Below, in pieces: positions 1 through 27,900 of a DNA stretch of 64,000 nucleotides; position 1 is the first letter of the stretch, and each line of letters opens with the position of its first letter. The translations under genes and the position numbers were made by a program. The stretch comes from Chrysomallon squamiferum (Eukaryota > Animalia > Mollusca): NCBI GenBank assembly GCA_012295275.1, contig CM022679.1, positions 13,826,001 through 13,890,000 of the forward strand, written 5' to 3'. Below the pieces are notes generated by a model that saw only the letters and a list, made by a program, of their open reading frames with translations, searched no databases and was not told the DNA's origin.

Positions 1-557
1 TTTATTTATTTTTATTATTTTATTATTATTATTTTTTAATTTCTTTCGAAAATATACAAAACGTTATTTTCCCGTGTAATTATTTACCTTAGATATTCTC
101 ACAACGTTCAAATTTCGTAGACATATTATACAGACAGTATGCAGGTAATTAATTCTATACAATATTTTTAATAATTTATAGGTGACACTCGATTTCATAC
201 AGCAATAGAGTTAATACAAAAGTCTGAGAAATCGCGAATCTAAATATTAACGCTCAAATTTACCAAAACATTAAACTAGAGAACACATAACATCTATTTA
301 ATACGGTAATATAATAATCTAAGAACAGTATACAGAGAAAACCAAATTAAACAAATTTCATACGGTATATGTTAAGAAAAAGGAACAGAAGAAAAATGTA
401 GTCTAGGTTGGGTACAGTTATGGGTGAATTGTAATATTTATTGTTACCTTGATGCAAATTGGATTGAGAGAGGTCTGCAGCGATCGTATAGTTGAACACA
501 GAATAACTTAGTAGTATGTAGAGGCAAGGTTTCAAGCGGGAAGTTTTGTAAGACACG

Positions 558-605
<48 letters not shown>

Positions 606-2379: not shown

Positions 2380-2426
<47 letters not shown>

Positions 2427-4202
2427 AAAAAAAAGCAGTTTGACTTACTTGGTTGTGTACTTAATTGCTTTTCTGTAATTATTTCTTTTTTAGTGTTCAC
2501 TTTCGACTCAAAGAATCAGTTAAACTGAAGAGTATTCCGAGGAATATTTGAATATTTCCTCAACAGGAAGGTTTCGAGACGGAAATTACGGTTGTTCAGA
2601 ATTATCTGTCGTCGAAGGAGATATAAATAGTTCCGGAATTTCCAAGCCAGTTAGTGCGTCTGCAAATACAGATAACATTGATTTCACATATGTGCATTTT
2701 CTTATGATTTAAAATAAAAATAAAAATCAGTCCATACCGGAAATTATATATATATATAAAAAAATAATAATAATAAATATTATTTTTTTTTTTAATAGAT
2801 GTTAATTATTATTATTATTATTGCTATATTTTATTTACTTTTTTAATTATATATATATTATAAGTATTTCAAGATAATCACAAAGTACATAAAATAAAGA
2901 CGTTATGAACCATTCAAAAACCATTTTATTTTTATTTTTATTTATTCATTTTTTTATTATTTTTATTTTTATTTTACTTTTTTTTTTACCGTCTCTCACT
3001 GATTATAAAATACTGGCATAGAGATATTATTTTGAAAGATATTCTGTGCATGATCATAAGTAAATGGTGATTTTAGGTAAACAAATTTAATGTAAATAAA
3101 TAAAATATTGCAATAATAACATTAATAATAATAAACATCTAAACAAATTTACAAAAAGTTACATTAAAAAAATAATAAAGAAATAAATAAGAAAGAAAGA
3201 AAGAATGAAAGAGAAAGAAAAGAAAAGCCAGTCATTGCGTCTGCAAATACAGATAACATTGATTACACATATCTACATTTTCATATGATTTAATATAAAA
3301 AAATAAATAATAAAAAATAAAAAAATAAAACAAAATAAAAATAAAAATGTAGTCTAGGTTGGGTATAGTTATGAGTGAATTGTAAAATTTATTGTTACCT
3401 TCATGGAAATTGGATTGAGATACGACTGCCGCAATCGTATAGTTGAACACAGAATAAGTTAATAGTACGTAGAGGCAAGGTTTCAAGCGGGAAATGACGT
3501 GTGTTCAGCTTTATTCAGACAAAATAATCACGTGTCGCGTAAGCGATATAAACAGTTCTATTTTCCAAATTAAAAGTAAATCCATACCGGAAATTGCACG
3601 TCTTTACTTTAGTCTATTTTTTTTTTTTTTATTTATTTATTTATTTATTTATTTTTATTATTTTATTATTATTATTTTTTAATTTCTTTCGAAAATATAC
3701 AAAACGTTATTTTCCCGTGTAATTATTTACCTTAGATATTCTCACAACGTTCAAATTTCGTAGACATATTATACAGACAGTATGCAGGTAATTAATTCTA
3801 TACAATATTTTTAATAATTTATAGGTGACACTCGATTTCATACAGCAATAGAGTTAATACAAAAGTCTGAGAAATCATGAATCTAAATATTAACCCTCAA
3901 ATTTACCAAAACATTAAACTAGAGAACACATAACATCTATTTAATACGGTAATATAATAATCTAAGAACAGTATACAGAGAAAACCAAATTAAACAAATT
4001 TCATACGGTATATGTTAAGAAAAAGGAACAGAAGAAAAATGTAGTCTAGGTTGGGTACAGTTATGGGTGAATTGTAATATTTATTGTTACCTTGATGCAA
4101 ATTGGATTGAGAGAGGTCTGCAGCGATCGTATAGTTGAACACAGAATAACTTAGTAGTATGTAGAGGCAAGGTTTCAAGCGGGAAGTTTTGTAAGACACA
4201 CG

Positions 4203-4248
<46 letters not shown>

Positions 4249-6024
4249 AAAAAAAAAGCAGTTTGACTTACTTGGTTGTGTACTTAATTGCTTTTCTGTA
4301 ATTATTTCTTTTAGTGTTCACTTTCGACTCAAAGAATCAGTTAAACTGAAGAGTATTCCGAGGAATATTTGAATATTTCCTCAACAGGAAGGTTTCGAGA
4401 CGGAAATTACGGTTGTTCAGAATTATCTGTCGTCGAAGGAGATATAAATAGTTCCGGAATTTCCAAGCCAGTTAGTGCGTCTGCAAATACAGATAACATT
4501 GATTTCACATATGTGCATTTTCTTATGATTTAAAATAAAAATAAAAATCAGTCCATACCGGAAATTATATATATATATAAAAAAATAATAATAATAAATA
4601 TTTTTTTTTTTTTAATAGATGTTAATTATTATTATTATTATTGCTATATTTTATTTACTTTTTTAATTATATATATATTATAAGTATTTCAAGATAATCA
4701 CAAAGTACATAAAATAAAGACGTTATGAACCATTCAAAAACCATTTTATTTTTATTTTTATTTATTCATTTTTTTATTATTTTTATTTTTATTTTACTTT
4801 TTTTTTTTTTTTACCGTCTCTCACTGATTATAAAATACTGGCATAGAGATATTATTTTGAAAGATATTCTGTGCATGATCATAAGTAAATGGTGATTTTA
4901 GGTAAACAAATTTAATGTAAATAAATAAAATATTGCAATAATAACATTAATAATAATAAACATTTAAACAAATTTACAAAAAGTTACATTAAAAAAATAA
5001 TAAAGAAATAAATAAGAAAGAAAGAAAGAATGAAAGAGAAAGAAAAGAAAAGCCAGTCATTGCGTCTGCAAATACAGATAACATTGATTACACATATCTA
5101 CATTTTCATATGATTTAATATAAAAAAATAAATAATAAAAAATAAAAAAATAAAACAAAATAAAAATAAAAATGTAGTCTAGGTTGGGTATAGTTATGAG
5201 TGAATTGTAAAATTTATTGTTACCTTCATGGAAATTGGATTGAGATACGACTGCCGCAATCGTATAGTTGAACACAGAATAAGTTAATAGTACGTAGAGG
5301 CAAGGTTTCAAGCGGGAAATGACGTGTGTTCAGCTTTATTCAGACAAAATAATCACGTGTCGCGTAAGCGATATAAACAGTTCTATTTTCCAAATTAAAA
5401 GTAAATCCATACCGGAAATTGCACGTCTTTACTTTAGTCTATTTTTATTTTTATTTATTTATTTATTTATTTATTTTTATTATTTTATTATTATTATTTT
5501 TTAATTTCTTTCGAAAATATACAAAACGTTATTTTCCCGTGTAATTATTTACCTTAGATATTCTCACAACGTTCAAATTTCGTAGACATATTATACAGAC
5601 AGTATGCAGGTAATTAATTCTATACAATATTTTTAATAATTTATAGGTGACACTCGATTTCATACAGCAATAGAGTTAATACAAAAGTCTGAGAAATCAT
5701 GAATCTAAATATTAACCCTCAAATTTACCAAAACATTAAACTAGAGAACACATAACATCTATTTAATACGGTAATATAATAATCTAAGAACAGTATACAG
5801 AGAAAACCAAATTAAACAAATTTCATACGGTATATGTTAAGAAAAAGGAACAGAAGAAAAATGTAGTCTAGGTTGGGTACAGTTATGGGTGAATTGTAAT
5901 ATTTATTGTTACCTTGATGCAAATTGGATTGAGAGAGGTCTGCAGCGATCGTATAGTTGAACACAGAATAACTTAGTAGTATGTAGAGGCAAGGTTTCAA
6001 GCGGGAAGTTTTGTAAGACACACG

Positions 6025-6066
<42 letters not shown>

Positions 6067-7836
6067 AAAAAAAAAGCAGTTTGACTTACTTGGTTGTGTA
6101 CTTAATTGCTTTTCTGTAATTATTTCTTTTAGTGTTCACTTTCGACTCAAAGAATCAGTTAAACTGAAGAGTATTCCGAGGAATATTTGAATATTTCCTC
6201 AACAGGAAGGTTTCGAGACGGAAATTACGGTTGTTCAGAATTATCTGTCGTCGAAGGAGATATAAATAGTTCCGGAATTTCCAAGCCAGTTAGTGCGTCT
6301 GCAAATACAGATAACATTGATTTCACATATGTGCATTTTCTTATGATTTAAAATAAAAATAAAAATCAGTCCATACCGGAAATTATATATATATATAAAA
6401 AAATAATAATAATAAATATTTTTTTTTTTTAATAGATGTTAATTATTATTATTATTATTGCTATATTTTATTTACTTTTTTAATTATATATATATTATAA
6501 GTATTTCAAGATAATCACAAAGTACATAAAATAAAGACGTTATGAACCATTCAAAAACCATTTTATTTTTATTTTTATTTATTCATTTTTTTATTATTTT
6601 TATTTTTATTTTTTTTTTTTTTTACCGTCTCTCACTGATTATAAAATACTGGCATAGAGATATTATTTTGAAAGATATTCTGTGCATGATCATAAGTAAA
6701 TGGTGATTTTAGGTAAACAAATTTAATGTAAATAAATAAAATATTGCAATAATAACATTAATAATAATAAACATCTAAACAAATTTACAAAAAGTTACAT
6801 TAAAAAAATAATAAAGAAATAAATAAGAAAGAAAGAAAGAATGAAAGAGAAAGAAAAGAAAAGCCAGTCATTGCGTCTGCAAATACAGATAACATTGATT
6901 ACACATATCTACATTTTCATATGATTTAATATAAAAAAATAAATAATAAAAAATAAAAAAATAAAACAAAATAAAAATAAAAATGTAGTCTAGGTTGGGT
7001 ATAGTTATGAGTGAATTGTAAAATTTATTGTTACCTTCATGGAAATTGGATTGAGATACGACTGCCGCAATCGTATAGTTGAACACAGAATAAGTTAATA
7101 GTACGTAGAGGCAAGGTTTCAAGCGGGAAATGACGTGTGTTCAGCTTTATTCAGACAAAATAATCACGTGTCGCGTAAGCGATATAAACAGTTCTATTTT
7201 CCAAATTAAAAGTAAATCCATACCGGAAATTGCACGTCTTTACTTTAGTCTATTTTTATTTTTATTTATTTATTTATTTATTTATTTTTTATTATTTTAT
7301 TATTATTATTTTTTAATTTCTTTCGAAAATATACAAAACGTTATTTTCCCGTGTAATTATTTACCTTAGATATTCTCACAACGTTCAAATTTCGTAGACA
7401 TATTATACAGACAGTATGCAGGTAATTAATTCTATACAATATTTTTAATAATTTATAGGTGACACTCGATTTCATACAGCAATAGAGTTAATACAAAAGT
7501 CTGAGAAATCGCGAATCTAAATATTAACCCTCAAATTTACCAAAACATTAAACTAGAGAACACATAACATCTATTTAATACGGTAATATAATAATCTAAG
7601 AACAGTATACAGAGAAAACCAAATTAAACAAATTTCATACGGTATATGTTAAGAAAAAGGAACAGAAGAAAAATGTAGTCTAGGTTGGGTACAGTTATGG
7701 GTGAATTGTAATATTTATTGTTACCTTGATGCAAATTGGATTGAGAGAGGTCTGCAGCGATCGTATAGTTGAACACAGAATAACTTAGTAGTATGTAGAG
7801 GCAAGGTTTCAAGCGGGAAGTTTTGTAAGACACACG

Positions 7837-7880
<44 letters not shown>

Positions 7881-9710
7881 AAAAAAAAAAAGCAATTTGA
7901 CTTACTTGGTTGTGTACTTAATTGCTTTTCTGTAATTATTTCTTTTAGTGTTCACTTTCGACTCAAAGAATCAGTTAAACTGAAGGGTATTCCGAGGAAT
8001 ATTTGAATATTTCCTCAACAGGAAGGTTTCGAGACGGAAATTACGGCTTGTTCAGAATGATCTGTCGTCCAAGGAGATATAAATAGTTCCGGAATTTCCA
8101 AGCCAGTTAGTGCGTCTGCAAATACAGATAACATTGATTTCACATATGTGCATTTTCTTATGATTTAAAATAAAAATAAAAATCAGTCCATACCGGAAAT
8201 TATATATATATGTAAAAAAATAATAATAATAAATATTTTTGTTTTTTTAATAGATGTTAATTATTATTATTATTATTGCTATATTTTATTTACTTTTTTA
8301 ATTATATATATATTATAAGTATTTCAAGATAATCACAAAGTACATAAAATAAAGACGTTATGAACCATTCAAAAACCATTTTATTTTTATTTTTATTTAT
8401 TCATTTTTTTATTATTTTTATTTTACTTTTTTTTTTACCGTCTCTCACTGATTATAAAATACTGGCATAGAGATATTATTTTGAAAGATATTCTGTGCAT
8501 GATCATAAGTAAATGGTGATTTTAGGTAAACAAATTTAATGTAAATAAATAAAATATTGCAATAATAACATTAATAATAATAAACATCTAAACAAATTTA
8601 CAAAAAGTTACATTAAAAAAATAATAAAGAAATAAATAAGAAAGAAAGAAAGAATGAAAGAGAAAGAAAAGAAAAGCCAGTCATTGCGTCTGCAAATACA
8701 GATAACATTGATTACACATATCTACATTTTCATATGATTTAATATAAAAAAATAAATAATAAAAAATAAAAAAATAAAACAAAATAAAAAATAAAAATGT
8801 AGTCTAGGTTGGGTATAGTTATGAGTGAATTGTAAAATTTATTGTTACCTTCATGGAAATTGGATTGAGATACGACTGCCGCAATCGTATAGTTGAACAC
8901 AGAATAACTTAATAGTACGTAGAGGCAAGGTTTCAAGCGGGAAATGACGTGTGCTCAGCTTTATTCAGACAAAATAATCACGTGTCGCGTAAGCGATATA
9001 AACAGTTCTATTTTCCAAATTAAAAGTAAATCCATACCGGAAATTGCACGTCTTTACTTTAGTCTATTTTTATTTTTATTTATTTATTTATTTATTTATT
9101 TTTTATTATTTTATTATTATTATTTTTTAATTTCTTTCGAAAATATACAAAACGTTATTTTCCCGTGTAATTATTTACCTTAGATATTCTCACAACGTTC
9201 AAATTTCGTAGACATATTATACAGACAGTATGCAGGTAATTAATTCTATACAATATTTTTAATAATTTATAGGTGACACTCGATTTCATACAGCAATAGA
9301 GTTAATGCAAAAGTCTGAGAAATCGCGAATCTAAATATTAACCCTCAAATTTACCAAAACGTTAAACTTTAGAACACATAACATTTATTTAATACGGTAA
9401 TATAATAATCTGAGAACAGCATACAGAAAAAAACAAATTAAACAAATTTCATACGGTATATGTCAAGAAAAAGGAACGGAAGACAAATGTAGACTACGTT
9501 GGCTATAGTAATGATTGAATTGTAAAATGTACTCTTACCTTGATGGAAATTGGATCGAGATAGGACTGCCGCCTTCGTATAGTTGAACATAGAATAAGTT
9601 AATAGTACGTAGAGGCAAGATTTCAAGCGGAAAGTTTTGTAACATGCACACACACGCACACACACATACACACGAAAAAAAAAAGCAATTTGACTTACTT
9701 GGATGTGTAC
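1..9710. repeat. Tandem array of ~1.82-kb units (about 5.3 copies visible, continues beyond the left edge)
   Basis: The marker ATGACGTGTG(T/C)TCAGC recurs at 1672, 3494, 5319, 7130 and 8944 (periods 1822, 1825, 1811, 1814). Units differ mainly in homopolymer and (CA)n length plus a few SNPs. The last partial unit (~9300-9710) is more diverged. Confidence 0.98.
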
Positions 9711-9759
9711 TTTTAAAACAATTTAGAGGACGAAAATAAAAATATTGCAATAATAGCAA

Positions 9760-10160
9760 TAATAATAACAAACAAAAAAAAAAAAAAAAAAAAAATTACA
9801 ATAGTAAAAATGAATAAACAAAAAAATACATAAATAAATAAAAGGAAATAAATAAAATTAAATAAATATAAAATAAAATAAAAAATGAAATAAAATTAAT
9901 AAATTTAAAAAAAAATAAAATTGATAAATTTAAATAACAATGAAATAAATATAAAATAAAATAAAGTTTAAAAAAATATTTTTTTCTAAATACAATATAA
10001 TTAAATTAAATTAATTAAATAAATAAATTAAATAAATATAAAAACGATTTGAAATAAAATAAAATAAAATGAATGAATGATTGAATGAATAATGAAATCA
10101 AATCAAATCAAATAAATATAAAATAAAATTAAATAAATTAAAAAAAAATTAAATTAAATT
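9760..10160. repeat. A-rich low-complexity tract (AAAT/AAAAT)
   Basis: Read directly; almost no C or G. Confidence 0.85.
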
Positions 10161-10180
10161 AAAAGTTGGATTTTTCTTAC

Positions 10181-11406
10181 TTTTACAAATTCCATTACCA
10201 TTTATGAATACAGCCTTTCAGCGTTTAACCCTTCTTTATCTACGGCTGGAACCACTGTTTTCAGTTCATTTGGAAGACCTGATCCATTTGGAATATGTTT
10301 GTTCTTATTACGTATGGTAATCACTATATCATCATCATCAACAGCAATGGTCTGGTCAGCAGTGTTTCTGTTTCTGTTTCTGTTTCTGGAATTCTGTCCA
10401 ACAGGATGATCTTCATCTGTTTCACTTATTTCCTGACACGACACACTTCCAGAACTTCTTCTGTAGTGTTTTCTATTAGCATCAACATCCTCTCCTTCTT
10501 TTCCATCACTGCTGCAGTGGATATTCCCGTTGGGAACTGCCTGACACAAAGTTGTTGTATCTGTGTCCCCAGCTCCATCTCCTGCCTCTCTCTGTGATTC
10601 AGCACACACGTTTTGCAACACCATCTTGTTCCCTAGAAATATTAAAACTTAATACAGTCCTATCTTTTATTAGTCATTTGTGTAACTCCATGAGAAAAAT
10701 TATATAAACAAAAAAGCAAACAAACAAATGATAAATACAATAATAAAAAAGAAAATGAAATAAACATTGTTAGAAATATAAAAATATACCACTCAGAAAT
10801 TACTGTTTTAGTGTACAACTCATACAAATTAACAGTAGTGATCTTCAGTCTGACCATAATGTAGGTCTCTACTTTGGCAGTATGATCAAATGGCAAAAAC
10901 ACTTTCAGTGTATCTCCTAATTTTTTTTTATTATTATCATTATTTTTATATATATATAAATATCAGCTAATGTTCGCTAATGATAAAGCATGACAGTAAA
11001 AATATACTATCACGAAACTGGATGAGTATTGTAATTTCCCCCCTTTATTTGCATCAATGATCATGATGTGTTGTCACACAAACTATAGCTATCAGTCTAC
11101 CATGTAGGCCTGTTCATTGTCGTTACTGCTTCACTGACGAATGGGGGAAAATGGCGGCGATACAATATTTTGAAACAGTATTATTTTATTACTATAGTTC
11201 ATTTTATTTATTTATTTATTTATTGAACAACGGTATTTCTTGTCCGTGACAAACAAAATAGTAATATAAGTGTAAAGAATTTTATCTCACTATTTATCAG
11301 ACTAGAGGTCTCTTATTTCATATAATGACATACGGAGTCCCATCACTGTGCCCACAGTTTGACAGGACAGAAATCTGCAACAGAATATGTTGATTCCGTC
11401 TCCCAT
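10181..11406 (-). pseudogene. 5' part of an unidentified protein-coding gene (2 exons), apparently frameshifted/truncated
   Basis: Exon 1 is 11406-11334: context CAAAATGG, MGDGINIFCCRFLSCQTVGTVMGL, phase-1 donor C|GTATGT. Exon 2 is 10632-10181: acceptor TTTCTAG|GG, in frame as R-N-K-MVLQNVCAESQ..., donor A|GTAAGA. An in-frame TAA at 10204-10202 lies just before the donor. No family recognised. A functional gene with a sequencing error is not excluded. Confidence 0.55.
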
Positions 11407-11419
11407 TTTGTTGGACACA

Positions 11420-12072
11420 AGTCTGGAAAATACAAAAGTCAGGGAAATCGCGAGTCTAAATATTAACCCTCAAATTTACAAAAACATTAAACTTTAGTAG
11501 ACATAAAACCTACATAATACAGTAAAACAATAATGTAAGAACAATATACTGACAAAAACAAATTAAACAAATTTCATACGGTATATGTTAAGAAAAAGGA
11601 ACAGTAGAAAATGTAGAGTACGTTGGCTATTGTTATGGGTGAATTGTAAAATGTATTGTTACCTTGATGGAAATTGGATTGAGATAGCACTGCCGCGATC
11701 GTATAATTGAACACAGAATAACTTAATAGTACGTAGAGGCAAGGTTTCAAGCGGGAAATGACGTGTGGTCAGCTTTATTCAGACAAAATAATCAAATGTC
11801 GGTTAAAATCAACGCAGAATTTTTAAATTTTTTACCTAGATTATTAAGGTTTCAAATAGAAATGACAGATTATTATTTATTTAAATTTACATTCTTTTTT
11901 ATGTATATATAAATAGTTCGGAATTTCCAAGTTAAAAATAAATCCATGTCGCAAACTATAATTTTTATTCTTTATTCTTTATTTTATTATTATTTTTATT
12001 TTAAATAGATGTTAATTATTATTATTGTTGTTGTTTTTACATTTTATTTATTTATTTATATTACTTTTTTTA

Positions 12073-13558: not shown

Positions 13559-14354
13559 ATAAGTATATTTTTCTGCATATATTTTAAAAAGCTTGAGCTA
13601 TATAAAACAAAAAACAAATATGTATGTATGTATGTGTTTTCAAATATGTATATGGACGTGTAAGAAAAAGGTGATTAATATCTCATTTTGTTTACAATTG
13701 TTATTATAGTGTTACTTCCACATTGTATTTATTCGACATTCGACTGCTGATTATATAACATAATCGCTTGAAATATTTCAGAAATAGTTATGGTAATTAT
13801 TTTATGATCGTAATATATATATTTTCAATCGTTTTGAAATTAATAATCATGATATAATGATCATTACAATTTAGCTGCTTGCGCGAAGCTTTTTAAATTT
13901 TATTTTCGTTTTGTCGACGTGCTGAAGCCGGCGTTCGCGTGAACCTGAATAATAGTGCTAAAACAAAATGATTTTGGTCAAGGGAAACAACTCAAAATTT
14001 ATTTAAAGCATAAAAAGCATTTTATTCTGTGAAATGAAAACCAAGGGGAACAACTCATATAATGTATTAATTCGTAAACAAAAAGACATCTTCAAGAATT
14101 TCGGACGACGTGGAAGTGGTTTTTCCAGAATGTTCGTTTGGTACAGGGATGGTTTGCTTCGTGACATTTTATCCACAAAAGCAATCTGATGCAGTCGTTT
14201 ATATTTCGGGGGTGTTTTTTGCTCTAAAACATAGTACAAGTTAAATGCAAAATTTTGTATAGCATTTATTTAGTTCCAACGCCAAAAAAACCCCAACAAT
14301 TTACGTAACCTTATATGATCAAAACAGTTTTTATTTTCATTTTATTTTAAAACA

Positions 14355-17300
14355 ATGGGCATATTTAATATAATTTTGGTGTTTGCCTGCGTGGCACCGT
14401 TGACTGTGGCTGAAATATTTACATCCATGGCACAGCTGGAGGAAGCATTGTACGCAGAAAAGGATCTCGCCTATGCACTTAGATTATACATACAGAATGA
14501 AGAAGCAAGATTAAGCAAATTAAAAAGGTAAATTTTGCATATATTTTCTCTTACACTACTTAATAAAAAAATAACAATAACAATAACAACTACAACAACA
14601 AAAACGAAGAGGGTTTAGAATATAAATGAAATATTTTTGACTGTTTAAGTAGTAACTGATTTTTCAAGAAAACATTTATTTATTACTAATACCATTGGAA
14701 CTTCCACAATTATTAGACAGTAATAGTAGCAGTAGTATATCGTTTAACACTTTTTATTCACAAGTTTAAATATCGAAAGAATTTTTTTTAAACTAAAGGG
14801 CAGTTTAAAAAAGCAACAAAAAAAACAATTATCATTTTTAACTAAAAAGGTCAAATTTAGTGTATCAGACACAAATTAAAAAGTAAGAAAGTTAGTATCA
14901 CTTTTAAATAAATAATCTGACAGAGTGTTAACTATTAGAAACTTATTCACTAAAATATATTTTATACTTATAATAGAACTGCAGATGATTATGAAACTCA
15001 CAGCAACCTGGCACTGCAAAATCCAGAAAAATATATAGCCAACCCAATTGAGGCTTTTCTTTTTGTGAAAAAATTTACTCAGGACTGGGATAGGGATATA
15101 GCCAGTCTGTTTGCAACCAACCAAACACAGCAAGGTAATATTTAAATATTTAGCCTACTGTTTAATAACCTGTCTGATTTTAGATTTTTTAAAGATATAA
15201 AATTAAATCTACCATACCTGAAGTTAATAATAATAGTCTTAAGGAAAACTGTTATAGTTCTTTTTAAAAATTATTGATTAAGAATAACAAATATTAAAAA
15301 TTGTCCTTAACAGATTGTTTATTATGTTCCATAATTGTTTTGACAGTTGTCTTTATTGGTTTCTTTTTTTTCTTTTTTAGTGTCTTTCAAAATATGTATT
15401 AAAGCTGGTGATTTTGCAAGGGATTTTTTTTTTTTTTTTCTTAATAAGTGAATATACTCTCTACATTTTTAAATTTTATTTGATAAAACTTCTAAATCTA
15501 CTGGCATTGGAAACAAACTAATTTAGTTGAATAATAATAATAATTAGTAATAAATAAAAAATATTAATTGAATTTTAAATAATTACTTAATTTTTCTTAA
15601 ATATTTTCCCAAGCATTTATTATCAACAGTGACAGTTTTTTTTTTATAAAGAATATTTTCATTTAAGATTTATTAGCAAGAATTGCGCAGTATCGCAGAT
15701 TGCTGCCAAATGAAGAGGATTTTGAAGGAGCAGTTTTGGGTTTGATACGACTTCAGGATACATACCAGCTTGAAACAACCAGACTTGCTGAGGGTGACAT
15801 CAACGGAATCCACTTTTCAGAACTAACAGGTAGAATCATTGCAACAGGCAAACAAATAAATTTAATAATAAATTAAGTTAATATTTTGACGTAACAGTTT
15901 TTGTTAGTGATAGATAGATGAGGTAGTTTCAGTTAATATTTTTTTTAAATAGATATTTTAATATGTTTTAATTTTATTTGAGTAAGTTTAGGTTTTTATT
16001 AGTAGTTTACAGACAAAGCAGTTCAATTGGGGTGGGGTTTTTTTTTAATACTTTTTACATTTAATTTGAGTGTATAAATGAGTTTGTATTTGCACCTTGG
16101 GCAGCATTTTTTTTTAATAAAATAGTCTAAAAGTTTTTTGTATATTTATATTTTAAATTATCCTTACTTAAATGACTTGAACTAATTTTGATAGTTGTTT
16201 ATATGCATTTACAAAATATCCCTACCAAAATAAGCATTTTGTCTTAAACCAGAACTTTTAATAATTTGAAAACAAAATAGAAATGTTATTTGAAAATTTG
16301 AAAATTAGTTTGTTTTATATTTCCTAGCATTATTTTAAATAATGTTTTATCAACATATAAGAATCTGTAAAAAAATTTAATTATTCCTTTTTTGTTCAGC
16401 ATGGAATTGTAATGCATGTGCCAGATAATTTGAAGCTTATGCTGTTTACCATGAAAATGTCATTACATGACATTATGTTAGTCCAACTTGTGAATAATGT
16501 GGTCTGTATATATGTAGATAAATAACAGTGCTTTTTCAAGTTTTCCAGATGCAATTTAACAAAAATTACAGGAATGTGTGCCATGTGACCAAATTAATTG
16601 ATCCAAACCCCTGTTTTAATCCATTGTGTTTTATCAAATACATATATTATACAGAAAAAGTTATAATGAACTAACTTCCTAAACTTGAAAGTATTTTCTT
16701 TTATTAGCATACTCTCTGTATATATATATAGATGTTTCTCTGTAGTGGGAAGCTGTAAATTTTCAAGGAAATGATTTTATGGTACTTGTTACTGCAAGAA
16801 CTGTGTAACCAAATATTCATTTACTAACTTTACGACTTTTAAGCACTGAATTTAGACCAAAAAAGTTTCCCATGAATGTTGAAATCTCAAACTGATATAT
16901 AAAAATATACCAAAACATTTTTCAAAAATGTGGGGGAAATGTTGTGGGATTCAAATGGAGAAAAAAAATAAAGAATGCATGTGATAGATAAAAGTCTTTA
17001 GACCTAGATATGTGAAAAATAAAACAAAACAAAAAAATAACACAGTGCTTCCAAAACTTCAAAAACATGTATATTTGTATATTAACAGCATGATCCAGGA
17101 CTGCTTTCTTTCCAGCCAGTTCTTGCTTTGAGATTGGTCGTGTCAGCTATGAGATGAATGATTTCAGTCATTCAGACATGTGGATGAAGCAAGCATTGAG
17201 CAGACTGCCAGACCATTCACAACAAACAGAACCAAACAAAGCAGTCATACTTGACTATCTGGCATTTTCAGCATACAAGGTTGGTTCTTGGGCTTGAACT

Positions 17301-19342
17301 AGCTGTGGGGAGAACTGTAATACTATAACCATGGGGTTCAGCATGGTCTGATCACAAAACCTTTCATCAGTTACATAGATTTCCACATACCAATCTCAAA
17401 AAAACACCTAAATAAAATAATAGCTTTTGAGGAAATGTAGCAGAAATTCAACTGATTTATATATGTTATTTATGTCTTCATCACCTTTGGTATTTAAAAA
17501 TGTTTAGTCAGATTCAGTTTATATAGTATTCTTTTTCTGTTAAATTTTTTTAACTAATTCTAAAATCTCAAAACTTTGAATTTATAAAAATGCCTGCTCC
17601 ATCTGCAAAATATGAAGATGAAATTATGTATGTGTGATGTGTGCTTTTCAGGTTGCTGTGTCTGGCACTTTACAATTTTTGTTTTTTTCTGCTGATATTC
17701 TATCCTGAAAATGTATGCTGTACTAACATAAGTAAGCTTTTTTTTTAAAAAAAAAAAAAAAATTATTTTAACATAGAATAGTGAAAAATATAGGCTTTTT
17801 ATGATTTTTAGGCACTTAATTTACCAGCAACAAGAATATTAACTGATTCACTTTCTGAGTTAAAATTAATAATATATGCATGATATTTAATTTTTTATTT
17901 AAAAAAAAAGAAAAGAAGTGGATAAGATTTTTGAAATTATGCAGAACAGGAGAATATCTGAAAGCATTATTTTATGGCATGGATTTACATTCATCATTTC
18001 TGAACTATCTATTCATGGCATGAGTTTACAGATGCTAATGCTTTTACAAAAATTAATACAAAGCTAGATAAAACTTTTTTCATGCACCATGCAAAAAACC
18101 AGAGCATCCAAAGCATGAAATTTCAAATACTTGAGAACCTACAAAGAGAAACATTTCTGATAACATCTCTGACTCTATGTAGCTGAGGAATGCTACACTA
18201 TTGGAAAGTATGCCTACTTCGCTGATGACTTCTATCACACTTACTTGTGGATGAGGGTTGCTCTGGCCAAGGAATCATTTGAACAGAACAAGACAGTTGC
18301 TCGATCTGACATTCTAGATTATTGTGCTTATGCTACAGCCAGGGTAAGCACTGTCCTGTAATGCCATGAACAGACATTTGTCATTATGTTTCCAGTGACT
18401 TGGTCTTAGTTTAAGATTTACTTTGTTACCTGCAGTGTTTTCATATGCTATTTCAGGTTAATTTTTTATTTTTTAAATTAATGTTTAATGTATTTTTTCA
18501 AATTACTGTTACACTGTTTTTACATATCTATATATATATATAGTTGTTTTTTTAATGGTTGTTTAATGGTATCATGTATTTCACAGTGTTTATACTACTG
18601 TTTGCAAACTATTGTATTAATTATTGTTTTAAAGTTATACTGTGTTATATTTAAGCTGTTTATTATGTTATTATGCTTTCATGTAGTCTAAAACTTTATG
18701 ATAGTACAATTATAAATTAAGAAATGTTACATAAAAATTTGTAATGTTCTGCTGTTCATTGGTTTATTGTATTATTTATTTTATTCTATTTCAATTAATT
18801 TTTATTTAATTTTATTTTAGTTTCATTTTATTTTTTTATTTAAAGATTTTCTTTCTTTTTTAAAGCAAATGCTGTAAAGAAAATGACAAATTTGATTTCT
18901 TTTCAAATGCCCATGTGTGAATCATTTTTAGAGCATTCTTCCTTATTCAATCAGCAGCTTAATGATGTATGTTGTGTAGTTTTAGTTATTCTGTTTCTGT
19001 TTATTTTCAGCAAGGAAATATTAGACATGCACTGAGTCTGACGAAGGAACTGCTGAAGATAGGTAAATTGCACTTAATAAAAATTAAAAGTTATTGAGAT
19101 AATCAGACTCTTTAATATTAAAAAAAAATAAGTGTTATCTGAATATTTCAGTATCAATATACCTTTTATTAAAATAGTATTTCTAATGTGAAAACTGAAA
19201 CTTGTAAAGTACCATTAATTTTAACTTCGAAATATTGCTTTTATATTTGTATGCATATAATGAATTCAGAAGTATTTATAGTAATCTTGTTATCTCTTCA
19301 TTTAAAAAGGGTTAGAAAAAAAAAAAATTGCATGATTGTAGA

Positions 19343-19376
<34 letters not shown>

Positions 19377-20565
19377 CATAATCAAAATTTGCTAGAAAGA
19401 TATATTTGATGTGTAAAATGAAAACACAGTGTTACAGGGGTGGAATAACTGGCTTTTTTTTTTTTTTTTTTTTTCACAGAGCCAAATCATGAACGAGCTC
19501 GGAACAATAAAGCCTATTATGAGAGAATTATTGCTGATGAAGAAAGGAAAGAAGGAAAACGTGGAGATGATGGAGAGGAACCAATAAGGAATCAGAGATT
19601 GAACAGACGAGGTTTTGAGTTCGAAACCTATGAAGCCTTGTGTCGGGGAGAAGATATCATAGTAGGGTTATTAATTTATCATCTTGAATTAAGTTAATAT
19701 TCCTTTCCATTCTATATGTTATGTAATTTAATTATAAAGTGTAATTCCTTAAAACTACTAGTAAGATGTATTAATATAATGTAAATACAAATTGTCCAAT
19801 TATTAAATAGTTGAAAGAAATGACCTGTGCTAAAGATTAGAAAATGAAATGATGGATATCTTTTTTTTAAATAAAATTAAATAAATATATATATATATAT
19901 ATATACACACAAATATAGATATATGTGTATATACCTATATACTTACATTATATATATATATGGAAGAAATTTACAAAAATACCTTAGAACTACATTTAAA
20001 ACAGTGGGCTGACATTATTTGCTCTATCAAAGATACTAACGTATTCCCAGAAAAGACAAATGTTTTTTAAAAACTTTAACATAGCATATGAACAGCTGAG
20101 GATTTCATAAAACTGAAATACAGTGCTTTCATTCTCTTTAAAACAGCCAATAAAAGATGCACACAAGTTGAAGTGTCGATACCAAACCAACAACAATCAC
20201 CCACTGCTGATTCTGAACCCTGCCAAGTTGGAGGAAGTTCACCTGAGACCCTGGATTGTTTTTTACCACGATTTTCTTAGCGATGCCAAAATTGAAACAG
20301 TTAAAAGTTTGGCTATGCCTAAGGTAACTTAAAGTGATATTGGTATTTGTTTTTTCCTTTTCTCCTGCATATGACACAAACAATAAGTAATATGATTTGT
20401 TTTTTTATTTCATATATTTTCTGCGTTTCCACCATCTAAGAAATGAAATACACTAATTCACAGGTTTTCACTTTGCTTATATTTTTAATCTTTCAGAAAT
20501 CTTGAATTTGTTTATGTTCTTAAACCAAATATTTGTACTAAAATTTTATTTTATTTTTGGGTTGA

Positions 20566-20599
<34 letters not shown>

Positions 20600-22994
20600 C
20601 ATCATTACTGTTATTATCATTATTTTAATTATCGTTGTTGTTGTTTTGGTTTTATCATTATCATGTTGTTTTTTTTTGTTTTTTTTTTACTGTTAGTATT
20701 TTTGTTGTTATTGTTATTGTTATTTATATACTTAATCCTTGAGTAATTTTTACAACCAGTTTTGTTTTTTAAATTTCAGCTGAATCGAGCAACAGTAAAT
20801 AACCCAGTAACAGGAAAACTAGAAACAGCCAGCTACAGAGTTAGCAAGAGGTCAGCATTACAGACTATTTGTATATAAATAATTGTAGTACTTAGATCAT
20901 ATATGTATTAGCATTACAGTTTATTGTATAAAATATTTCTTGACTAAGTACAGAGAATTTGGATATTTGTTGTATTTACAGTGTAATGAATGACTGAATA
21001 TTGTTTTTGGAAAAGTATTTACAGTATATCACATAAAACCAGGGTGTAACAGTTATAATGAATTTCCGTTATCAGGGAATTATTATAATTTAGGAAACCA
21101 TTATGTTTTATATAACTTTTAAAATGCAGTGAGTTTCTTAGGTTAAAAAAAACACACCACCAAAATAGCAACAACCCAGTTTTCATTAGTTTTCATGGTT
21201 CTTTCCCTTCGTTAGAAAGTTGGTATTTCTTTCCTGTTTATTCACATAAAGAGACTAATATTTAGCACTTCTAAGTGTTTAATGTTATTTTAATTGCCAG
21301 TGCATGGCTGGACACAAGTGAACATCCACATATTGACAGAATAGTGAAACGAATTGAAGCAATTACAGGTTTAAATATGAACACGGCAGAGGAACTGCAG
21401 GTAAAATAAAAAAATAAAATAACATGTACATGTGTACATAAAGAGTGCATAAAGAATCCTCGCACAAAAGCTACACAAGTTCAGTATCAGTTACATTTGT
21501 TAATTCCCAAAGATAACATAATATCTGTGGAGGGGTAATATCCCAAAGACGCAAGGAGAGTACATTTTATCATATCAAGAAGCATTAAGATTGTATCTGT
21601 ATCTCCTCAGATGAACACTTTTTTCATATTTAGATAAGAAGCTTCAAAAATGTAAACGTTTAAATATAATAATAATATGAACCTGTTTGTTCATAATATA
21701 TGTTACAACAGAATCTAATAATCCAAATGTTTCCTTATTTTATGGCTAATGTAATTATAAAATAATTAACTAAATTTTGTTTCTAATATTTTGTTATTTC
21801 AGGTTGCTAATTATGGAATAGGAGGCCATTATGAGCCACACCATGATTTCAGTACTGTAAGAACAATTTGGTTGTCTTAACTTAATGTTTGTCTCTTTAC
21901 ACTTTGTTATGTATTTATGAAACTGTACAAAAGGCACTATGTTTTCTCCTGACAGAACAATTTGGTTTGAATTACAACACAATCCACAAATTGTACCTTT
22001 TGTATTTTCAAACATACATCTTTGGATTTTTTCTAAAAAGTTTGTTAAAAAATTTGTTTATTAATTATTTAACAATGAGTGTTTTATATTTTTAAAACTT
22101 ATAATAGTTAATATTATTGTTATTATGATTTTTGTTATTATTATCATTATTACATTTTTTTTTTTTTTTTTTTATACAGAGGAAAAATGATGATGCATTT
22201 AGTTCACTGGGAACAGGGAACCGAATAGCTACTTGGCTGAATTATGTAAGTTAAAGTCTTTTTACTTAAAAGTATTTGTTAGAAATACCCGAAAGAAATT
22301 ATTCAGAAATCAGTTCATTAACCAATATAAAGAGTTACTTTGTTTTGCTGTAATTATTTAAATAAATATTTTTAGTAACTATAAACTTGAGAATTCTTTG
22401 AATTGTGTCTTGTTTTTATCATATTGTTTCTCTTGTATCAGATGAGTGATGTAACTGCAGGTGGAGCCACTGTGTTTCCAAAGATAGGAGTTAAGTTATT
22501 TCCTAAAAAGGTAAAAAGCTGTTTTCTCAAAACTACTTTTTTCATTTAGTTATTAATATTTATTTAGTTATTTTAGGTTAAATATGTTTTGTTTTTTTGT
22601 TGTTATTTTTTTTTATTTTTTTTAAACTGAATGAAATTATGAATAAACAGATTTTATTTTATATGTGTGTGTGTGTGTGTGTGTAAATACTTTTTTTTTT
22701 TTTTGTCTTTTTCCTCTTTTTTTTGTATAAATTCAGATACAAAATTTAAATTATTATTAATAAAGTTGTTCTCTATAGGACTTTTATAAAATATACAGTA
22801 AAATAAAGTTTCATTTTTAATCTAAGGGAGTTTCTGCTTTCTGGTACAACCTGTACAAAAGTGGAGAAGGTATCTTTGAAACCAGACATGCAGCCTGTCC
22901 TGTTTTGGTGGGTCAGAAGTGGGTATCTACAAAGTGGATTCATGAAAGGGGACAGGAATATCGTAGACCTTGCAGTATAGATCCCACTGAATAG
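14355..22994 (+). CDS. P4HA: Collagen prolyl 4-hydroxylase alpha subunit (P4HA1/P4HA2-like), 531 aa with exon 4a or 530 aa with exon 4b
   Basis: Exons: 14355-14527, 14977-15134, 15668-15829, [17116-17279 or 18183-18343], 19011-19062, 19480-19661, 20147-20323, 20780-20850, 21301-21400, 21803-21856, 22180-22245, 22442-22510, 22827-22994. All introns are GT-AG and phase-consistent. Motifs: signal peptide then EIFTS, LIRLQDTY, YRVSKSAWL, ELQVANYGIGGHYEPHHD (HxD), GNRIATWL, TRHAACPVLVGQKWV, RRPC. Confidence 0.97.
17116..17279 (+). CDS. P4HA: P4HA alternative exon 4a (peptide-substrate-binding/TPR domain)
   Basis: 164 nt, TTTCCAG acceptor, GTTGGT donor, phase 1 to phase 0. Encodes ASSCFEIGRVSYEMNDFSHSDMWMKQALSRLPDHSQQTEPNKAVILDYLAFSAYK. 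Confidence 0.9.
18183..18343 (+). CDS. P4HA: P4HA alternative exon 4b (peptide-substrate-binding/TPR domain)
   Basis: 161 nt, ATGTAG acceptor, GTAAGC donor, phase 1 to phase 0. Encodes AEECYTIGKYAYFADDFYHTYLWMRVALAKESFEQNKTVARSDILDYCAYATAR. Confidence 0.9.
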
Positions 22995-24841
22995 TTGTAA
23001 AGCATAATCCAGACATTGTTTCTATAGCAAAACACACACATGTGTATAATACTCATTTTATTATTTTTTTTAAAAAGTATGTTGAAAAACAAAATCATTC
23101 CTCACTGACATGTATTTTTAGTTTTTATAAATGTATTACTAGTTTACAAGATGTGTACATTTTTTGATACTTTCAGTATAGCCACTACTTCATAACGTTT
23201 TTCAAAATGAATTGCCATTAAATTATCTTTACAGATAGCTTTTGTGTAATTTTTTCTCTTTATGATATATAAAAAATAGCAAATGCATTTATGGAAAAGC
23301 ATTTACCAAAACATTTTTATCAAAAGGGAAGCAATTTAAATTCATAATATTTAATATATTGTTCAAGGGAAATAATCTTCATGTTTAGCATAATACTTTG
23401 ATTTTATTTTTATTTTTAAGTAATATGTTTGATTTTTAGAGAAATAGATATCTCTTGCTGCTAATAATTAAGTATTACTGTATCATTTTCTGAATATATA
23501 GTCCCCAGACAGTTTTCAAAGTTCTTGTTACAACTTTTGTATGTATATTATGCTTTCATATAGACATGTAAAGAGTCTGCAAATGTGTATTACTTTTTCA
23601 TGTTTTTATTATTATTTATAGTAATTATTATTAAATAATAAGGGGATATCAAATAGGATTTTTTTTTTTTTTTGGTTATGTTAGGGTATTTTGTTGGTTT
23701 TTTTTTTTTTTTTCTTCTCATAGCATATTTTGTTAAATCCATTTATCTGTATTGAAATGCAGCAGTGTACAGCTGTTTTTATAACTTGGAATGTTAATAG
23801 ATATGTCATTCACTGGTTATTATTATCATTTATCAATTTGCCATCTTTCTGGTCAGTTCTGCAGCAGAAAACAAAATAGGTATCAAAATTTAATCTTCAG
23901 ATTTTATCAGTTACTATTTATGCTTTTGTTTTTCTATATCAAAATTTGCCATTCTCAGTTTATGGTCTGTGAACAAAATAAAACTGCTAGATAATATATA
24001 TCTTTTTATAGCTTAAGTTGAAAATATACTTGAAGGGCTTAGAACTAGAATGGTCTAACTTGTACGTTGGTTACTAAGACAAACAAAAATGAAAAGTAAT
24101 GAACTGTGGTTCATGGGACAGGGTGCAGTCATGAGTTTCTTTAGTTGGTTTTTATATGAATGAAATAAGATAAAAATTAACAAAAATACGAGAAAACTCA
24201 AACAGGTGAAAACTAAAAAAAATTTATAAAGACCTGAAGTTCAGTGACATCATAGTAATTTATGAAGCACTGGACTATTCAGTCAACATCTTATCACCAT
24301 ATAATAAAAACTCATTTCTTATTTCTGTCAGGGTAGTTCCACTCTGGTTTTCAGCCCTTCATTTTTAACTTTCTTGGTGATATACTAAATGGAAACGTCT
24401 TGTTTTTTTCCATGTCTCCAAATTCAGCTGGTCTGTTTATGTAGTTAGTGTTGTGTTCTTCCATAGTGAATTTTTAGTCTGGGAATTGGTACCTTTTACA
24501 TACTATTCTCATTTTTTTTATAATTTTAAAAAAAATCTTTTTTCACAGAGAGAATTGTAAGTTTTTTTTGTAAAATTAGTTACAAATTCAGTATAAATTT
24601 TACAGTATATGTACAGTTTCTTGTGTATCATCACTAAATTTATTTGTAGATGATTTCTAAATATGTTTAGAAAGCAGACTGTTGAATGTTTTGTCACTTA
24701 TATTTTAAAGTTTATTGATGTTTATCTGAAAATGTACATTTCATTACTTTTATACATGCTTTTCATGTCTTTTTCTTAACCAGTGAGAGATCAAACTTAC
24801 TTTTTCATTTTGATTTGAATTGTTGTATCACTGCTTTTAGC

Positions 24842-24924
24842 AATAAACTGTTTTATATAGATGTATAGTTATTATCTGTTTAAAAGACAATAAATACAAG
24901 GTTTTTAAAAAAAAAGTATTTATT
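24842..24924. terminator. Candidate back-to-back polyadenylation signals (P4HA on +, PSD long isoform on -)
   Basis: AATAAA on + at 24842 and 24889; AATAAA on - at 24924-24919. These coincide with a visible switch from T-rich to A-rich + strand. AATAAA has low specificity in this AT-rich DNA. Confidence 0.35.
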
Positions 24925-27900
24925 TTGAAACTGGTACAAGTGAAATGATTAAAGGATGATGATGAATCTTTTGTTTCTGATTACCTTTTTTTTTCATATT
25001 TCTTACATGAATACTTAACAATGTATTATAGAAATGAAAACAACTCCAATAAAAAAACAAAAACAAAAGTAAGAAATTGTAAGAAATTATAAGAAATTAC
25101 AATCAAATTAGTTATTCAGGTTTAAACTATGCAGAGTATCAACTGATATTAAGGACCAAGAATAAAAAGTACAAATGTAGTGTACCACATTAAATGAAAT
25201 CAATTTTAAATGTTTCAAAACAGCATGAGTATTTATGATACTACAGAAGAAAAAAAATTCTGCATGCTGGTAAAACATTTAGGATTAATATTCTAAGTGT
25301 CTGAAATGAAAAAAATAATTTTTAAAGATTTGTTATTTTTTGTTAAACAAAATAGCTTCTATAAGAGTAAGAAACAAAAATGTTTTCAGTGATCATAAAC
25401 AAGCTCAGACAAATCTTAAATGAAAATTTAGGTGGGAAGAGATGTATAAATGATGCTGATCCAATAATACTTAAAATAATACCAAATAATATAACTGTTC
25501 TAGTGTATAGCCGCCAGTCACCATGCATTCTGAATAACAACTATCCAGAAAATAATAATAATAATTCTTTAAATAAATAAAATAAAAACTATTACACTAA
25601 CATACATTTGTGTGTGTGCAAAATGAAAGACATGTTTCTATGTATAATAAACAGTAAAACTACATACATTGTACAGTGTACATAAAATACAATCTTCATG
25701 TTAACGAACAAATACTACAGTAACGAACATTACTGTTGTTATTGGCCCCAGATTTAATTTTAATTCTAGGGATAAAGAAACAGAATTAAAACTATTGTTG
25801 CATTTTAAAAGTTTTCCAGTTTTATGAAATATTTAATAAATGAGAAACTAAACATTTTGCTCAGTACTGAATCTACAATAAGTATTAGAGGTCTTACAAA
25901 TATGTTAACAGTTAGTTCAAGATTATTCATCCTACAGCTAAAACCTAAAGCTAACACCCTCCATCTTTCCATTCTAGTCCATAAAGTTTATACAGAATTT
26001 AGTGAGGCCTCAAATGTTTGTAACCTAGACAACTGCCTAGTTTTTAACCTGATAGGTAAGTCCTGTTTTTCTTATGGTTATTGATAACTAATAAATTCCA
26101 TTAAAATACTGTACATCGATTGGTATTTTTGTAATATTATTTATATCTGAAAATTATTTATTAGACAAATTTCCAACTAAGTAAAATGTGGGCTTTGTTT
26201 AGAAAAAAAAGAAGGAAATTCTATTAATTATTTTAGTTTTCATGTCAAACTACAGTTCAGTCAGCACATTTCTATCCATGCATATAGCTGGATTGTTTTT
26301 TGTTTTTCATAATTTTAAATAAACAAATAAATATAAATTAATCTTTTAAATAACAGAACAGAAATATAAATGATAAATGCCACAAAGTTTACATATTTCT
26401 GAGACAGATGTGTATTTATTAATTCAATGACATCTAGAGATCAAATTCAGTAAATAAAAGTGCAGTTTACCTTAATTATTAAAAACTTCTATATTTAATT
26501 TTTAAGCAATAACTGTTATAAAACAAAACTGAATGGGCCATATTTTGAAATAGTTATTAACAATCCCAGATCAGACAATTTATTAATATCATCCATTTTT
26601 GATGTCACTGAACTGTATCAAATTTGCTTAATCCAAAGCCATCAATTATTAGTATTACACTGGAGTAATGAGAAGAATAAATTAAAATTCATATTTAAAA
26701 TATTAATATCTCAGTTGTCTTACATATTTTTATCTTATTATTATTTATTAGTCCCTTAACAGTCTGTTAAATTTATTATTTTATTCCAGACTGCAGTATC
26801 ATAAAATTATTGTTGAAAAACTACAGAGTATGACTTTTGGCAGTATACAAAATATGGATTTCCTTTCAATTACCAGATTTAGTATTATCTTGAAAAATAA
26901 ATAAAGTATTCATTTAAACTCTGCTTAAAGCATTTCAGAATAGTGCTGTTTTTCAAAATTTTAAAACAATATTAAAATGAAACAATTTAAAACCAGAACA
27001 AAAATTCAGTTGAAGTAACATTTAAGCATGATATACTCAATGTAATAATAACTAAAAAATATTGTGTATAAATATCTATATAAATAAATAAATAAATAAA
27101 GTAATAAATAACATCAATGCATTAAACAACATTTAAACTTCTTACTTGTTAAAGTTTTTAAAAAAAAATGGTGAAATTAAAATTATTTGCTATGGTAGCT
27201 TTTAAAGGATATAATTTTTAAAATTAATTATAACTAAGCTTCATGATAAGCCAATCCCTGACTAGAAACTAAAAAATATTAACATTGCACTACAAAACTG
27301 GGACAAAGCAGGAAATTATATAACACAAAACATTTTTCACCAATGTTAAAAATACTGTAACATATTCAACATAAATATTTTAAAAATAATTTGCTGCTTT
27401 GAAATATTTAAAAAAATATTTAATGCAATAATAAATTCAACTATAAAACTAAAATTAAAAATTATTTTTGAAGAAATTTTAGAGTGGAAAATAATAAAGC
27501 AAAGCAAAAAAAAAAATAATAATAATAATAATAATAATAAATTTAACTATGAACAAAATATATTTTTCAGTATTAAACTAATATTGCTTTCATCAGTTTA
27601 AAACAAATAAAAGAAAATACATGTATCCAGGTAAATTATAAACATGTCACTCAGCTCTAAATCAATATTAAATTATATAAAAATTTAACACAACTCAATA
27701 GTTGCAACATTGTCTATTGATAACTTCAAAATCATATTAAAAAATAATAATAAATACCACTAATAATTAAATTAAAATATAGATTCTACAGTAGTGGCAA
27801 AAATTAAAAAAATAGAATGATTTCTCACAATCTGCAAATGACAAAAACAACAGACAAACAAAAAAGTAATAAAAAATGCCATTTAGCACAACACATTTGC

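What the first reader, a model, noticed from the sequence alone, without database searches (positions are those of the whole stretch)
17116..18343. Mutually exclusive exon pair that swaps the substrate-binding domain of collagen prolyl 4-hydroxylase
Seen: two tandem, homologous but strongly diverged exons (A..CF/Y.IG..SY/AY..DF.H..WM..AL...ILDY). Both are stop-free, have intact splice sites and run phase 1 to phase 0. Including both or neither shifts the frame, so exactly one must be used. Established: this segment is the first part of the TPR-type peptide-substrate-binding domain, and the human P4HA1 helix DYLSYAVY contributes aromatic residues to the proline-peptide groove. The known vertebrate mutually exclusive exons (P4HA1 9/10, P4HA2 12a/12b) are instead in the catalytic domain. 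Here 4a reads DYLAFSAY and 4b reads DYCAYATA, and only 4b has an N-K-T sequon. Inference: one gene makes two isoenzymes with different collagen/proline-rich substrate preference, doing by splicing what vertebrates do with paralogues.
Basis: partly seen in the sequence, partly recalled or inferred. Interest (0 to 1): 0.85.

Follow-up and report, generated by a model that had tools for sequence, protein, structure and literature searches.

The report
Swappable collagen-gripping exon in prolyl hydroxylase
In an animal that is likely a snail, the gene for the collagen-modifying enzyme prolyl 4-hydroxylase carries two alternative versions of the exon that builds half of its collagen-gripping groove and splices in one or the other, an arrangement also found in a clam and a brachiopod that likely gives two enzymes with different substrate preference, although here the first version was seen joined to the exon before it only in a form with an early stop.

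Summary
Observation confirmed. Exons 4a (17116-17279) and 4b (18183-18343) are homologous, phase 1 to 0, and each alone completes a P4H-alpha frame (531/530 aa); both or neither give early stops. RNA contigs of 4 runs (one study) show 3-4b (2/4), 4b-5 (4/4), 4a-5 (3/4), and no 4a-4b or 3-5 joint. The pair recurs in a Tegillarca model, Lingula RefSeq isoforms and two unnamed contigs. Five second-type exons share Tyr156 (0/132 background) and lack the aromatic of P5-pocket Tyr199; 4a has Phe at 196. The N-K-T sequon is not a conserved difference. GCATG (RBFOX) motifs cluster in the introns before 4a and 4b. Binding is untested. Already in automatic annotation (Lingula); no describing paper found in ten searches. 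The scan earlier found catalytic-domain P4HA exon pairs on other DNA, not this one. New variant of a known kind.

The parts
14355..22994 (+). Collagen prolyl 4-hydroxylase alpha-subunit gene, 13 coding exons per transcript
   Evidence: Model with AG/GT at every internal boundary, open 531/530 aa; 75% identical to Gigantopelta P0001 over 371 aa. RNA checked only for 15600-19300; loose ends there match the end of exon 2 and the start of exon 6.
15668..15829 (+). Exon 3, constitutive, ends in phase 1
   Evidence: Covered and joined onward in 4 of 4 runs.
17116..17279 (+). Exon 4a, productive form (helices H7-H9 of the PSB domain, canonical type, Phe at 196, Tyr at 199)
   Evidence: Open frame; 3' joint to exon 5 in 3 of 4 runs; 5' joint at 17116 in 0 of 4 runs; good pyrimidine tract and a YTRAY 31 nt upstream.
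17089..17115 (+). 27-nt upstream extension of 4a with in-frame TGA at 17091-17093 (likely NMD-targeted form)
   Evidence: Joint 15829 to 17089, GT..AG, in runs X2 and X4; no variant letter listed at the TGA; stop at codon 166.
18183..18343 (+). Exon 4b (derived type: Tyr156, Tyr196, Ala at 199, N-K-T)
   Evidence: Single contigs join 3-4b-5 in X1 and X3; 4b-5 joint in 4 of 4 runs; 74% identical to Gigantopelta.
19011..19062 (+). Exon 5, constitutive here (helix H10); single copy
19480..19661 (+). Exon 6 (helix H11, with the equivalents of Arg223, Asn227, Tyr230; constant half of the groove)
   Evidence: Translation read against the human alignment.
15830..18182 (+). Introns before 4a and before 4b, with 9 GCATG (RBFOX-type) motifs at 16399, 16414, 16977, 17088, 17341, 17878, 17977, 18018, 18113
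   Evidence: 9 in 2856 nt of the three flanking introns against 1 in 4027 nt of the other ten (Fisher p 0.002).

Best explanation
This is a tandem pair of homologous exons, spliced one at a time, that swaps helices H7-H9 of the peptide-gripping domain of collagen prolyl 4-hydroxylase; it is likely an ancient lophotrochozoan switch that likely yields two enzyme forms with a differently shaped proline pocket, and its choice is likely set by RBFOX-type splicing factors. Shown: exon anatomy, frame logic, RNA joints 3-4b, 4b-5, 4a-5, recurrence in four other genes. Inferred: both-or-neither products and the 17089 form of 4a are removed by nonsense-mediated decay; the 17116 acceptor is used at some level and gives a 531-aa enzyme; the b form, lacking the Tyr199 wall of the P5 pocket, binds proline-rich peptides differently from the a form (Phe196, Tyr199), so one gene does part of what vertebrate paralogues P4HA1 and P4HA2 do.
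For: Frame logic. RNA joints, with no 4a-4b and no 3-5 joint in 4 of 4 runs. Same segment present twice in tandem in the Tegillarca model P0002, swapped between Lingula RefSeq isoforms (2 of 11 carry the b type), and present as two AG..GT exons of phase 1-0 in genomic contigs L004 and L005. Tyr156 in 5 of 5 b-type exons (window, Gigantopelta, Tegillarca, Lingula, L004), 0 of the other 19 rows, 0 of 132 background segments; position 199 non-aromatic in those 5 (A,S,L,T,S) against 8 of 132 background. Tyr196 and Tyr199 shape the P5 pocket, Tyr158, Asp192, Tyr193, Tyr196 the P8 pocket, and Tyr193/196/230 to Ala raise Km (PMC12433258). A model of the Lingula b isoform has the five PSB helices, the exon covering the first three, and fits human PSB at 1.0-1.8 A rmsd. 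4a shows no significant excess of change against Lottia (12:5, 10:6, 7:5; p 0.14-0.77). GCATG excess repeats in L005 (10 against 2.45 expected, p 2e-4; antisense 1).
Against: The productive 3-4a joint (17116) was seen in 0 of 4 runs; the joint seen carries a stop. All RNA is assembled contigs from one study: no levels, no tissues, absence not shown. No binding data. The exon tree is unresolved (3 of 21 branches starred); a single b clade is not rejected (p-AU 0.45) but not shown, and the second exon of L005 lacks both b signatures (Gln156, Tyr199). The background was retrieved with 4a as query, which biases it against b types. Phe196 is the commonest state in that background (93 of 132), so it is not special to 4a. 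4a has lost two nearly constant residues (Asp149 to Ser, 1 of 132; Tyr164 to Ser, 0 of 132). GCATG was noticed after the fact in the window (rank 5 of 1024 pentamers) and in L004 the excess is weak and also seen in other introns (6 against 2.3; 8 against 3.95).
Confidence: 0.6

Rival explanations
1. In this species 4a has become mainly a poison exon: choosing it sends the message to decay through the 17089 acceptor, so the ancestral two-isoenzyme switch now works as an off-switch and only 4b makes enzyme.
For: Only the stop-bearing joint is seen, and it is the path the assembler kept in 2 of 4 runs. Loss of Asp149, Tyr164 and the sequon in 4a. No annotated protein of 96 aa or more matched 4a while 4b found Gigantopelta at 74% (weak search). 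The 27-nt extension holds off-frame Asp-Cys-Phe codons (about 1% by chance, noticed after the fact), a hint that the start of 4a was rearranged.
Against: 4a is stop-free over 54 codons, keeps Tyr158, Asp192, Tyr193, Tyr199 and the helix pattern, and is not significantly accelerated. 17116 has a stronger pyrimidine tract than 17089 (12 against 9 of 17) and its own branch-point-like motif. The libraries hold unspliced intronic sequence, so nuclear forms not yet degraded are expected, and contigs drop minor paths such as a 27-nt variant. No SECIS-like match in 14000-27000, so recoding of the TGA is unlikely.
Confidence: 0.2
2. Both isoforms are made but bind peptides alike; the swap tunes something else (folding, tetramer assembly, packing against the N-terminal domain, stability at temperature or pressure).
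For: The strictest b signature, Tyr156, is not among the listed pocket residues. Four of the five exon-borne groove residues are aromatic-equivalent in both forms, and the H11 half of the groove is shared.
Against: The second conserved difference, loss of the aromatic at 199, sits in the P5 pocket and holds in 5 of 5 b types.
Confidence: 0.15
3. The pairs in different phyla arose by separate duplications or were partly homogenised, so there is no single ancient switch, only a duplication-prone exon.
For: Unresolved tree; L005 second exon is of a different type; L004 copies are 61% identical to each other; mrp-1 is described as an independent gain of such exons in molluscs, annelids and helminths (PMC7434440).
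Against: Same order (canonical first, Tyr156 type second) in window, Tegillarca and L004, same boundaries, two shared rare residues.
Confidence: 0.2

Closest known systems
Mutually exclusive exons of vertebrate P4HA1 and P4HA2
   Same: Same enzyme family, tandem homologous exons used one at a time (PMC12525012 passage; P4HA1 event also reported in C. remanei, PMC8373072 passage).
   Different: Those exons (9/10 and 12a/12b, placement recalled, not from a call) lie in the catalytic domain. Here the swap is in the PSB domain, and the window gene has single copies of the two catalytic-domain exons.
Vertebrate paralogues C-P4H-I and C-P4H-II
   Same: Two PSB versions; in the vertebrates they differ in affinity for (PPG)n, poly-Pro and PxGP peptides (PMC12433258).
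   Different: Separate genes, and the described difference is at the P1 pocket (Tyr233 against Gln); here the difference would be at P5 (position 199) with everything else in the protein identical.
Lingula anatina P4HA isoforms X1-X11 (RefSeq XP_023930560-70)
   Same: The same segment is swapped, with the same b signature.
   Different: Automatic annotation only; Lingula also swaps three further segments (2, 4 and 2 versions), the window gene only this one.
coq-2 exons 6a/6e (PMC7434440)
   Same: A canonical and a derived homologous exon, exclusive, shared by molluscs and annelids, with two invariant residue changes that switch substrate use.
   Different: Unrelated enzyme; function shown genetically there, untested here.

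Membership tests
Collagen prolyl 4-hydroxylase alpha subunit | N-terminal dimerisation domain, TPR-type PSB domain, catalytic 2OG/Fe domain in one open frame | tested here: met
   Gene model; PSB hits; 75% identity to P0001 with Pfam PF23558 and PF13640.
Collagen prolyl 4-hydroxylase alpha subunit | Hydroxylates X-Pro-Gly as a complex with PDI | not testable with these tools
   Needs enzyme assay.
Tandem-duplicated mutually exclusive exons | Adjacent homologous exons, same phases, similar length | tested here: met
   164 and 161 nt, phase 1-0, score 90 against shuffle maximum 31.
Tandem-duplicated mutually exclusive exons | Each exon is spliced between the same flanking exons | tested here: met
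   3-4b-5 in X1, X3; 3-4a-5 in X4 and both 4a joints in X2, though through the 17089 acceptor.
Tandem-duplicated mutually exclusive exons | No transcripts with both or neither | tested here: inconclusive
   0 of 4 runs show such joints, but contigs cannot show absence.
Tandem-duplicated mutually exclusive exons | Both choices give full-length protein | tested here: inconclusive
   4b yes; 4a only through 17116, a joint not seen in RNA here; both full-length in Lingula annotation.
Vertebrate P4HA1 9/10 or P4HA2 12a/12b event | Swapped exon lies in the catalytic domain | tested here: not met
   Swap is at PSB helices H7-H9; catalytic exons are single in the window.
Exclusive splicing by competing RNA pairings or steric block | Conserved docking/selector complementarity, or a very short intron between the exons | tested here: not met
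   Only AT-rich, low-complexity inverted repeats, none shared with L004 or L005; intron is 903 nt. Short or imperfect pairings could be missed.
Selenoprotein (TGA read as Sec) | SECIS element downstream | tested here: not met
   No SECIS family among 4 weak Rfam matches in 14000-27000.
RBFOX-regulated exon | (U)GCAUG motifs enriched in flanking introns | tested here: met
   Window 9 against 2.07 expected; L005 10 against 2.45; L004 weak; motif identity from PMC5538552.
RBFOX-regulated exon | Exon choice changes when RBFOX is removed | not testable with these tools
   Needs knockdown or minigene.

The most novel reading that the evidence does not exclude
Lophotrochozoans build their collagen prolyl hydroxylases combinatorially from one gene with up to four exclusive exon clusters (two in the PSB domain, two in the catalytic domain; up to 32 combinations in Lingula), including an undescribed, half-billion-year-old second type of peptide groove without the Tyr199 wall; this snail has kept only the groove switch and has coupled one arm of it to message decay.
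Probability: 0.35. Interest if true: 0.75.

Novelty: new variant of a known kind. Interest (0 to 1): 0.52.

Why it matters
[quoted passage not shown] Two natural enzyme forms that are identical except for three helices of that domain, kept across phyla with the same two residue changes, are a ready-made test of whether the domain sets which prolines get hydroxylated. It also suggests how invertebrates with very different proline-rich substrates (fibrillar and cuticle collagens, byssus, shell matrix, peptides) could diversify the enzyme without gene duplication, and it flags a systematic annotation error: models that join both exons (Tegillarca) or start in the intron (Gigantopelta).

Tried and rejected
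No assembly was held for the window, so no other P4H genes of this species were examined. Word search with 4a found nothing among 6 candidates (weak). Loci L008 and L009 of 9 were false hits and were dropped; L001, L002, L003, L007 are intronless copies and L006 an arthropod-like gene with a different exon layout, so only L004 and L005 inform on tandem copies. The exon tree (24 rows, 55 columns) was unresolved. Inverted-repeat search gave no docking site. Sec recoding: no SECIS. Extra copies of exons 5, 8 and 11 in the window: none by HMM. Cluster look-ups of 20 further hits named only two echinoderms, insects, fish and nematodes; the Asterias X1/X2 pair compared differs only in the catalytic domain, too thin to set the taxonomic range. 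The Atlas returned only the known PSB family. The single-sequence model is poor outside the PSB domain (mean pLDDT 44.7). No complex prediction was run: no proline-rich substrate chain was at hand.

Full report
Observation. The window holds a collagen prolyl 4-hydroxylase alpha gene at 14355-22994 (+). Exons 4a (17116-17279, 164 nt) and 4b (18183-18343, 161 nt) have AG/GT ends and run from phase 1 to phase 0. Their peptides are 20/54 identical, score 90 against a maximum of 31 in 2000 shuffles, and there is no third copy in the window. Each matches the first half of the human P4HA1 peptide-substrate-binding (PSB) domain. In the full model 4a gives 531 aa and 4b 530 aa; both together stop at codon 243, neither at 169. 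The nearest of six named proteins compared is from the gastropod Gigantopelta aegis (76% over the C-terminal 316 aa, against 47-68% for Lottia, Solemya, Tegillarca, Lingula and Owenia), so the source is likely a gastropod.

RNA. Five runs hold the gene, four on record as RNA, from one study. Joints, all GT..AG: exon 3 to 4b in 2 of 4 (X1, X3, each one contig through to exon 5), 4b to 5 in 4 of 4, 4a to 5 in 3 of 4, exon 3 to 4a in 2 of 4 (X2, X4), 4a to 4b in 0 of 4, 3 to 5 in 0 of 4. The 17116 joint was seen in 0 of 4. These are contigs, which show presence only, drop minor paths, and here include unspliced intronic pieces, so a productive 4a message is neither shown nor excluded. Rfam shows no SECIS in 14000-27000. 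The 17116 site has the better pyrimidine tract and a branch-point-like motif 31 nt upstream whose A sits just before the 17089 AG, which fits two competing acceptors.

Relatives. Three word searches returned six named proteins. The Gigantopelta model begins in the intron before a 4b-type exon (74% identical). The Tegillarca model contains both copies in tandem. Among 11 Lingula RefSeq isoforms, 2 swap exactly this segment; I did not see Lingula or Tegillarca DNA, so the tandem layout there is inferred from the proteins. A metagenome scan gave 9 loci; two were false hits, five were intronless or of a different exon layout, and two genomic contigs, L004 and L005, carry two AG..GT copies of phase 1-0 between the same flanking exons. 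The pair is therefore seen in five genes, spanning gastropod, bivalve and brachiopod.

What the swap changes. With human numbering, set by alignment to a human-like hit so that 158, 192, 193, 196 and 199 fall on Tyr, Asp, Tyr, Tyr, Tyr, the exon carries 5 of the 9 residues listed for the P5 pocket (Tyr196, Tyr199, Asn227, Tyr230, Phe231) and the P8 pocket (Tyr158, Tyr193, Tyr196, Asp192-Arg223) in PMC12433258 (abstract, passages and first part of the introduction read). Five second-type exons (window, Gigantopelta, Tegillarca, Lingula X3, L004) share Tyr156, found in 0 of the other 19 rows and 0 of 132 background segments, and have Ala, Ser, Leu, Thr, Ser at 199, against 8 of 132 non-aromatic in the background (that background was retrieved with 4a and is biased to the canonical type). 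The second exon of L005 has neither mark. 4a has Phe196, the commonest background state (93 of 132). A model of the Lingula b isoform shows the five PSB helices, the exon spanning the first three (pLDDT about 65-78), and fits human PSB-I and PSB-II at 1.0-1.8 A. The sequon is in both copies in Tegillarca and L004, in the first only in Lingula, in the second only here and in L005, so it is not the conserved difference. 4a has lost Asp149 and Tyr164 but is not significantly faster than Lottia's exon (p 0.14-0.77). The exon tree is unresolved; one b clade is not rejected.

How the choice may be made. The intron between the exons is 903 nt and no shared pairing element was found. GCATG, the RBFOX motif (PMC5538552 passages), occurs 9 times in 2856 nt of the three flanking introns and once in the other 4027 nt (p 0.002). 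I noticed it after the fact; as a named test it repeats in L005 (10 against 2.45, p 2e-4, antisense 1; that intron holds a tandem array and my intron limits were approximate) and only weakly in L004 (6 against 2.3, with other introns at 8 against 3.95). Factor-driven choice plus decay of frame-shifted products is the likeliest mechanism; both steps are inferred.

Comparison with what is known. Exclusive transcripts of P4HA1 and P4HA2 are long known (PMC12525012 passages; PMC8373072 passages); that they lie in the catalytic domain is recalled. The window gene has single copies of those exons, while Lingula and L004 have clusters there and at the H10 exon too. The nearest functional precedent is coq-2 6a/6e (PMC7434440 passages). 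Ten searches of the held library (listings only except the five papers named) found no paper describing a PSB-domain exon swap; subscription journals and the supplements of exon-duplication surveys were not seen and may list it. The scan's earlier notes concern catalytic-domain pairs in arthropod P4H and fish PLOD1; look-ups by sequence and by PSB words were empty.

Verdict. The feature is real, transcribed and deeply conserved; it is a new variant of a known kind, already present in one automatic annotation. The isoenzyme reading is likely for the group (0.6 for this gene as stated), with a serious local rival in which 4a serves mostly as a poison exon (0.2). Interest 0.52; 0.75 if the combinatorial system and a distinct second groove type are confirmed.

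Noticed in passing
Lingula proteins P0006-P0016; L004 4669-4719, 5154-5201, 7834-8777, 11043-11631; Owenia P0005: Three further exon clusters in the same gene family: two versions of the H10 exon (Lingula, L004, joined in the Owenia model), four versions of the catalytic-loop exon in Lingula (one clear and two weak candidates in L004), and two (Lingula) or three (L004) versions of the exon after the HxD motif. The window gene has single copies of all three.
   Followed up: partly
window 17089-17129: Off-frame codons for Asp-Cys-Phe lie 22 nt before the real Cys-Phe, and the AG-CATG start resembles the Ala-Trp-Asp start of the first exon of L005; a possible trace of an older exon start. About 1% by chance, noticed after the fact.
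   Followed up: partly
L005 4482-5145: A 47-nt tandem array repeats the end of the first alternative exon with its donor site about 14 times in the following intron.
   Followed up: no
window 350-11770: Degenerate tandem repeat of about 1.8 kb period with several near-identical copies, seen from recurring ORF translations.
   Followed up: no
window 43410-49596, minus strand: Exons of a PH-domain gene (Pfam PH_9, E 5e-28) with a 514-codon low-complexity exon; resembles PSD/EFA6 by recall.
   Followed up: partly
window 56909-60009, plus strand: Exons that resemble sphingosine-1-phosphate lyase by recall; no Pfam match at E 0.01 for the two fragments tried.
   Followed up: no
window 21803-21856: The iron-binding motif reads His-His-Asp where the named relatives have His-Phe-Asp.
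   Followed up: no
window 17200, 17222, 18223: RNA variants: 17222 (4 of 4 runs) and 18223 (3 of 4) are synonymous, 17200 (1 of 4) changes Ser to Asn in 4a (codon effects read by hand).
   Followed up: no
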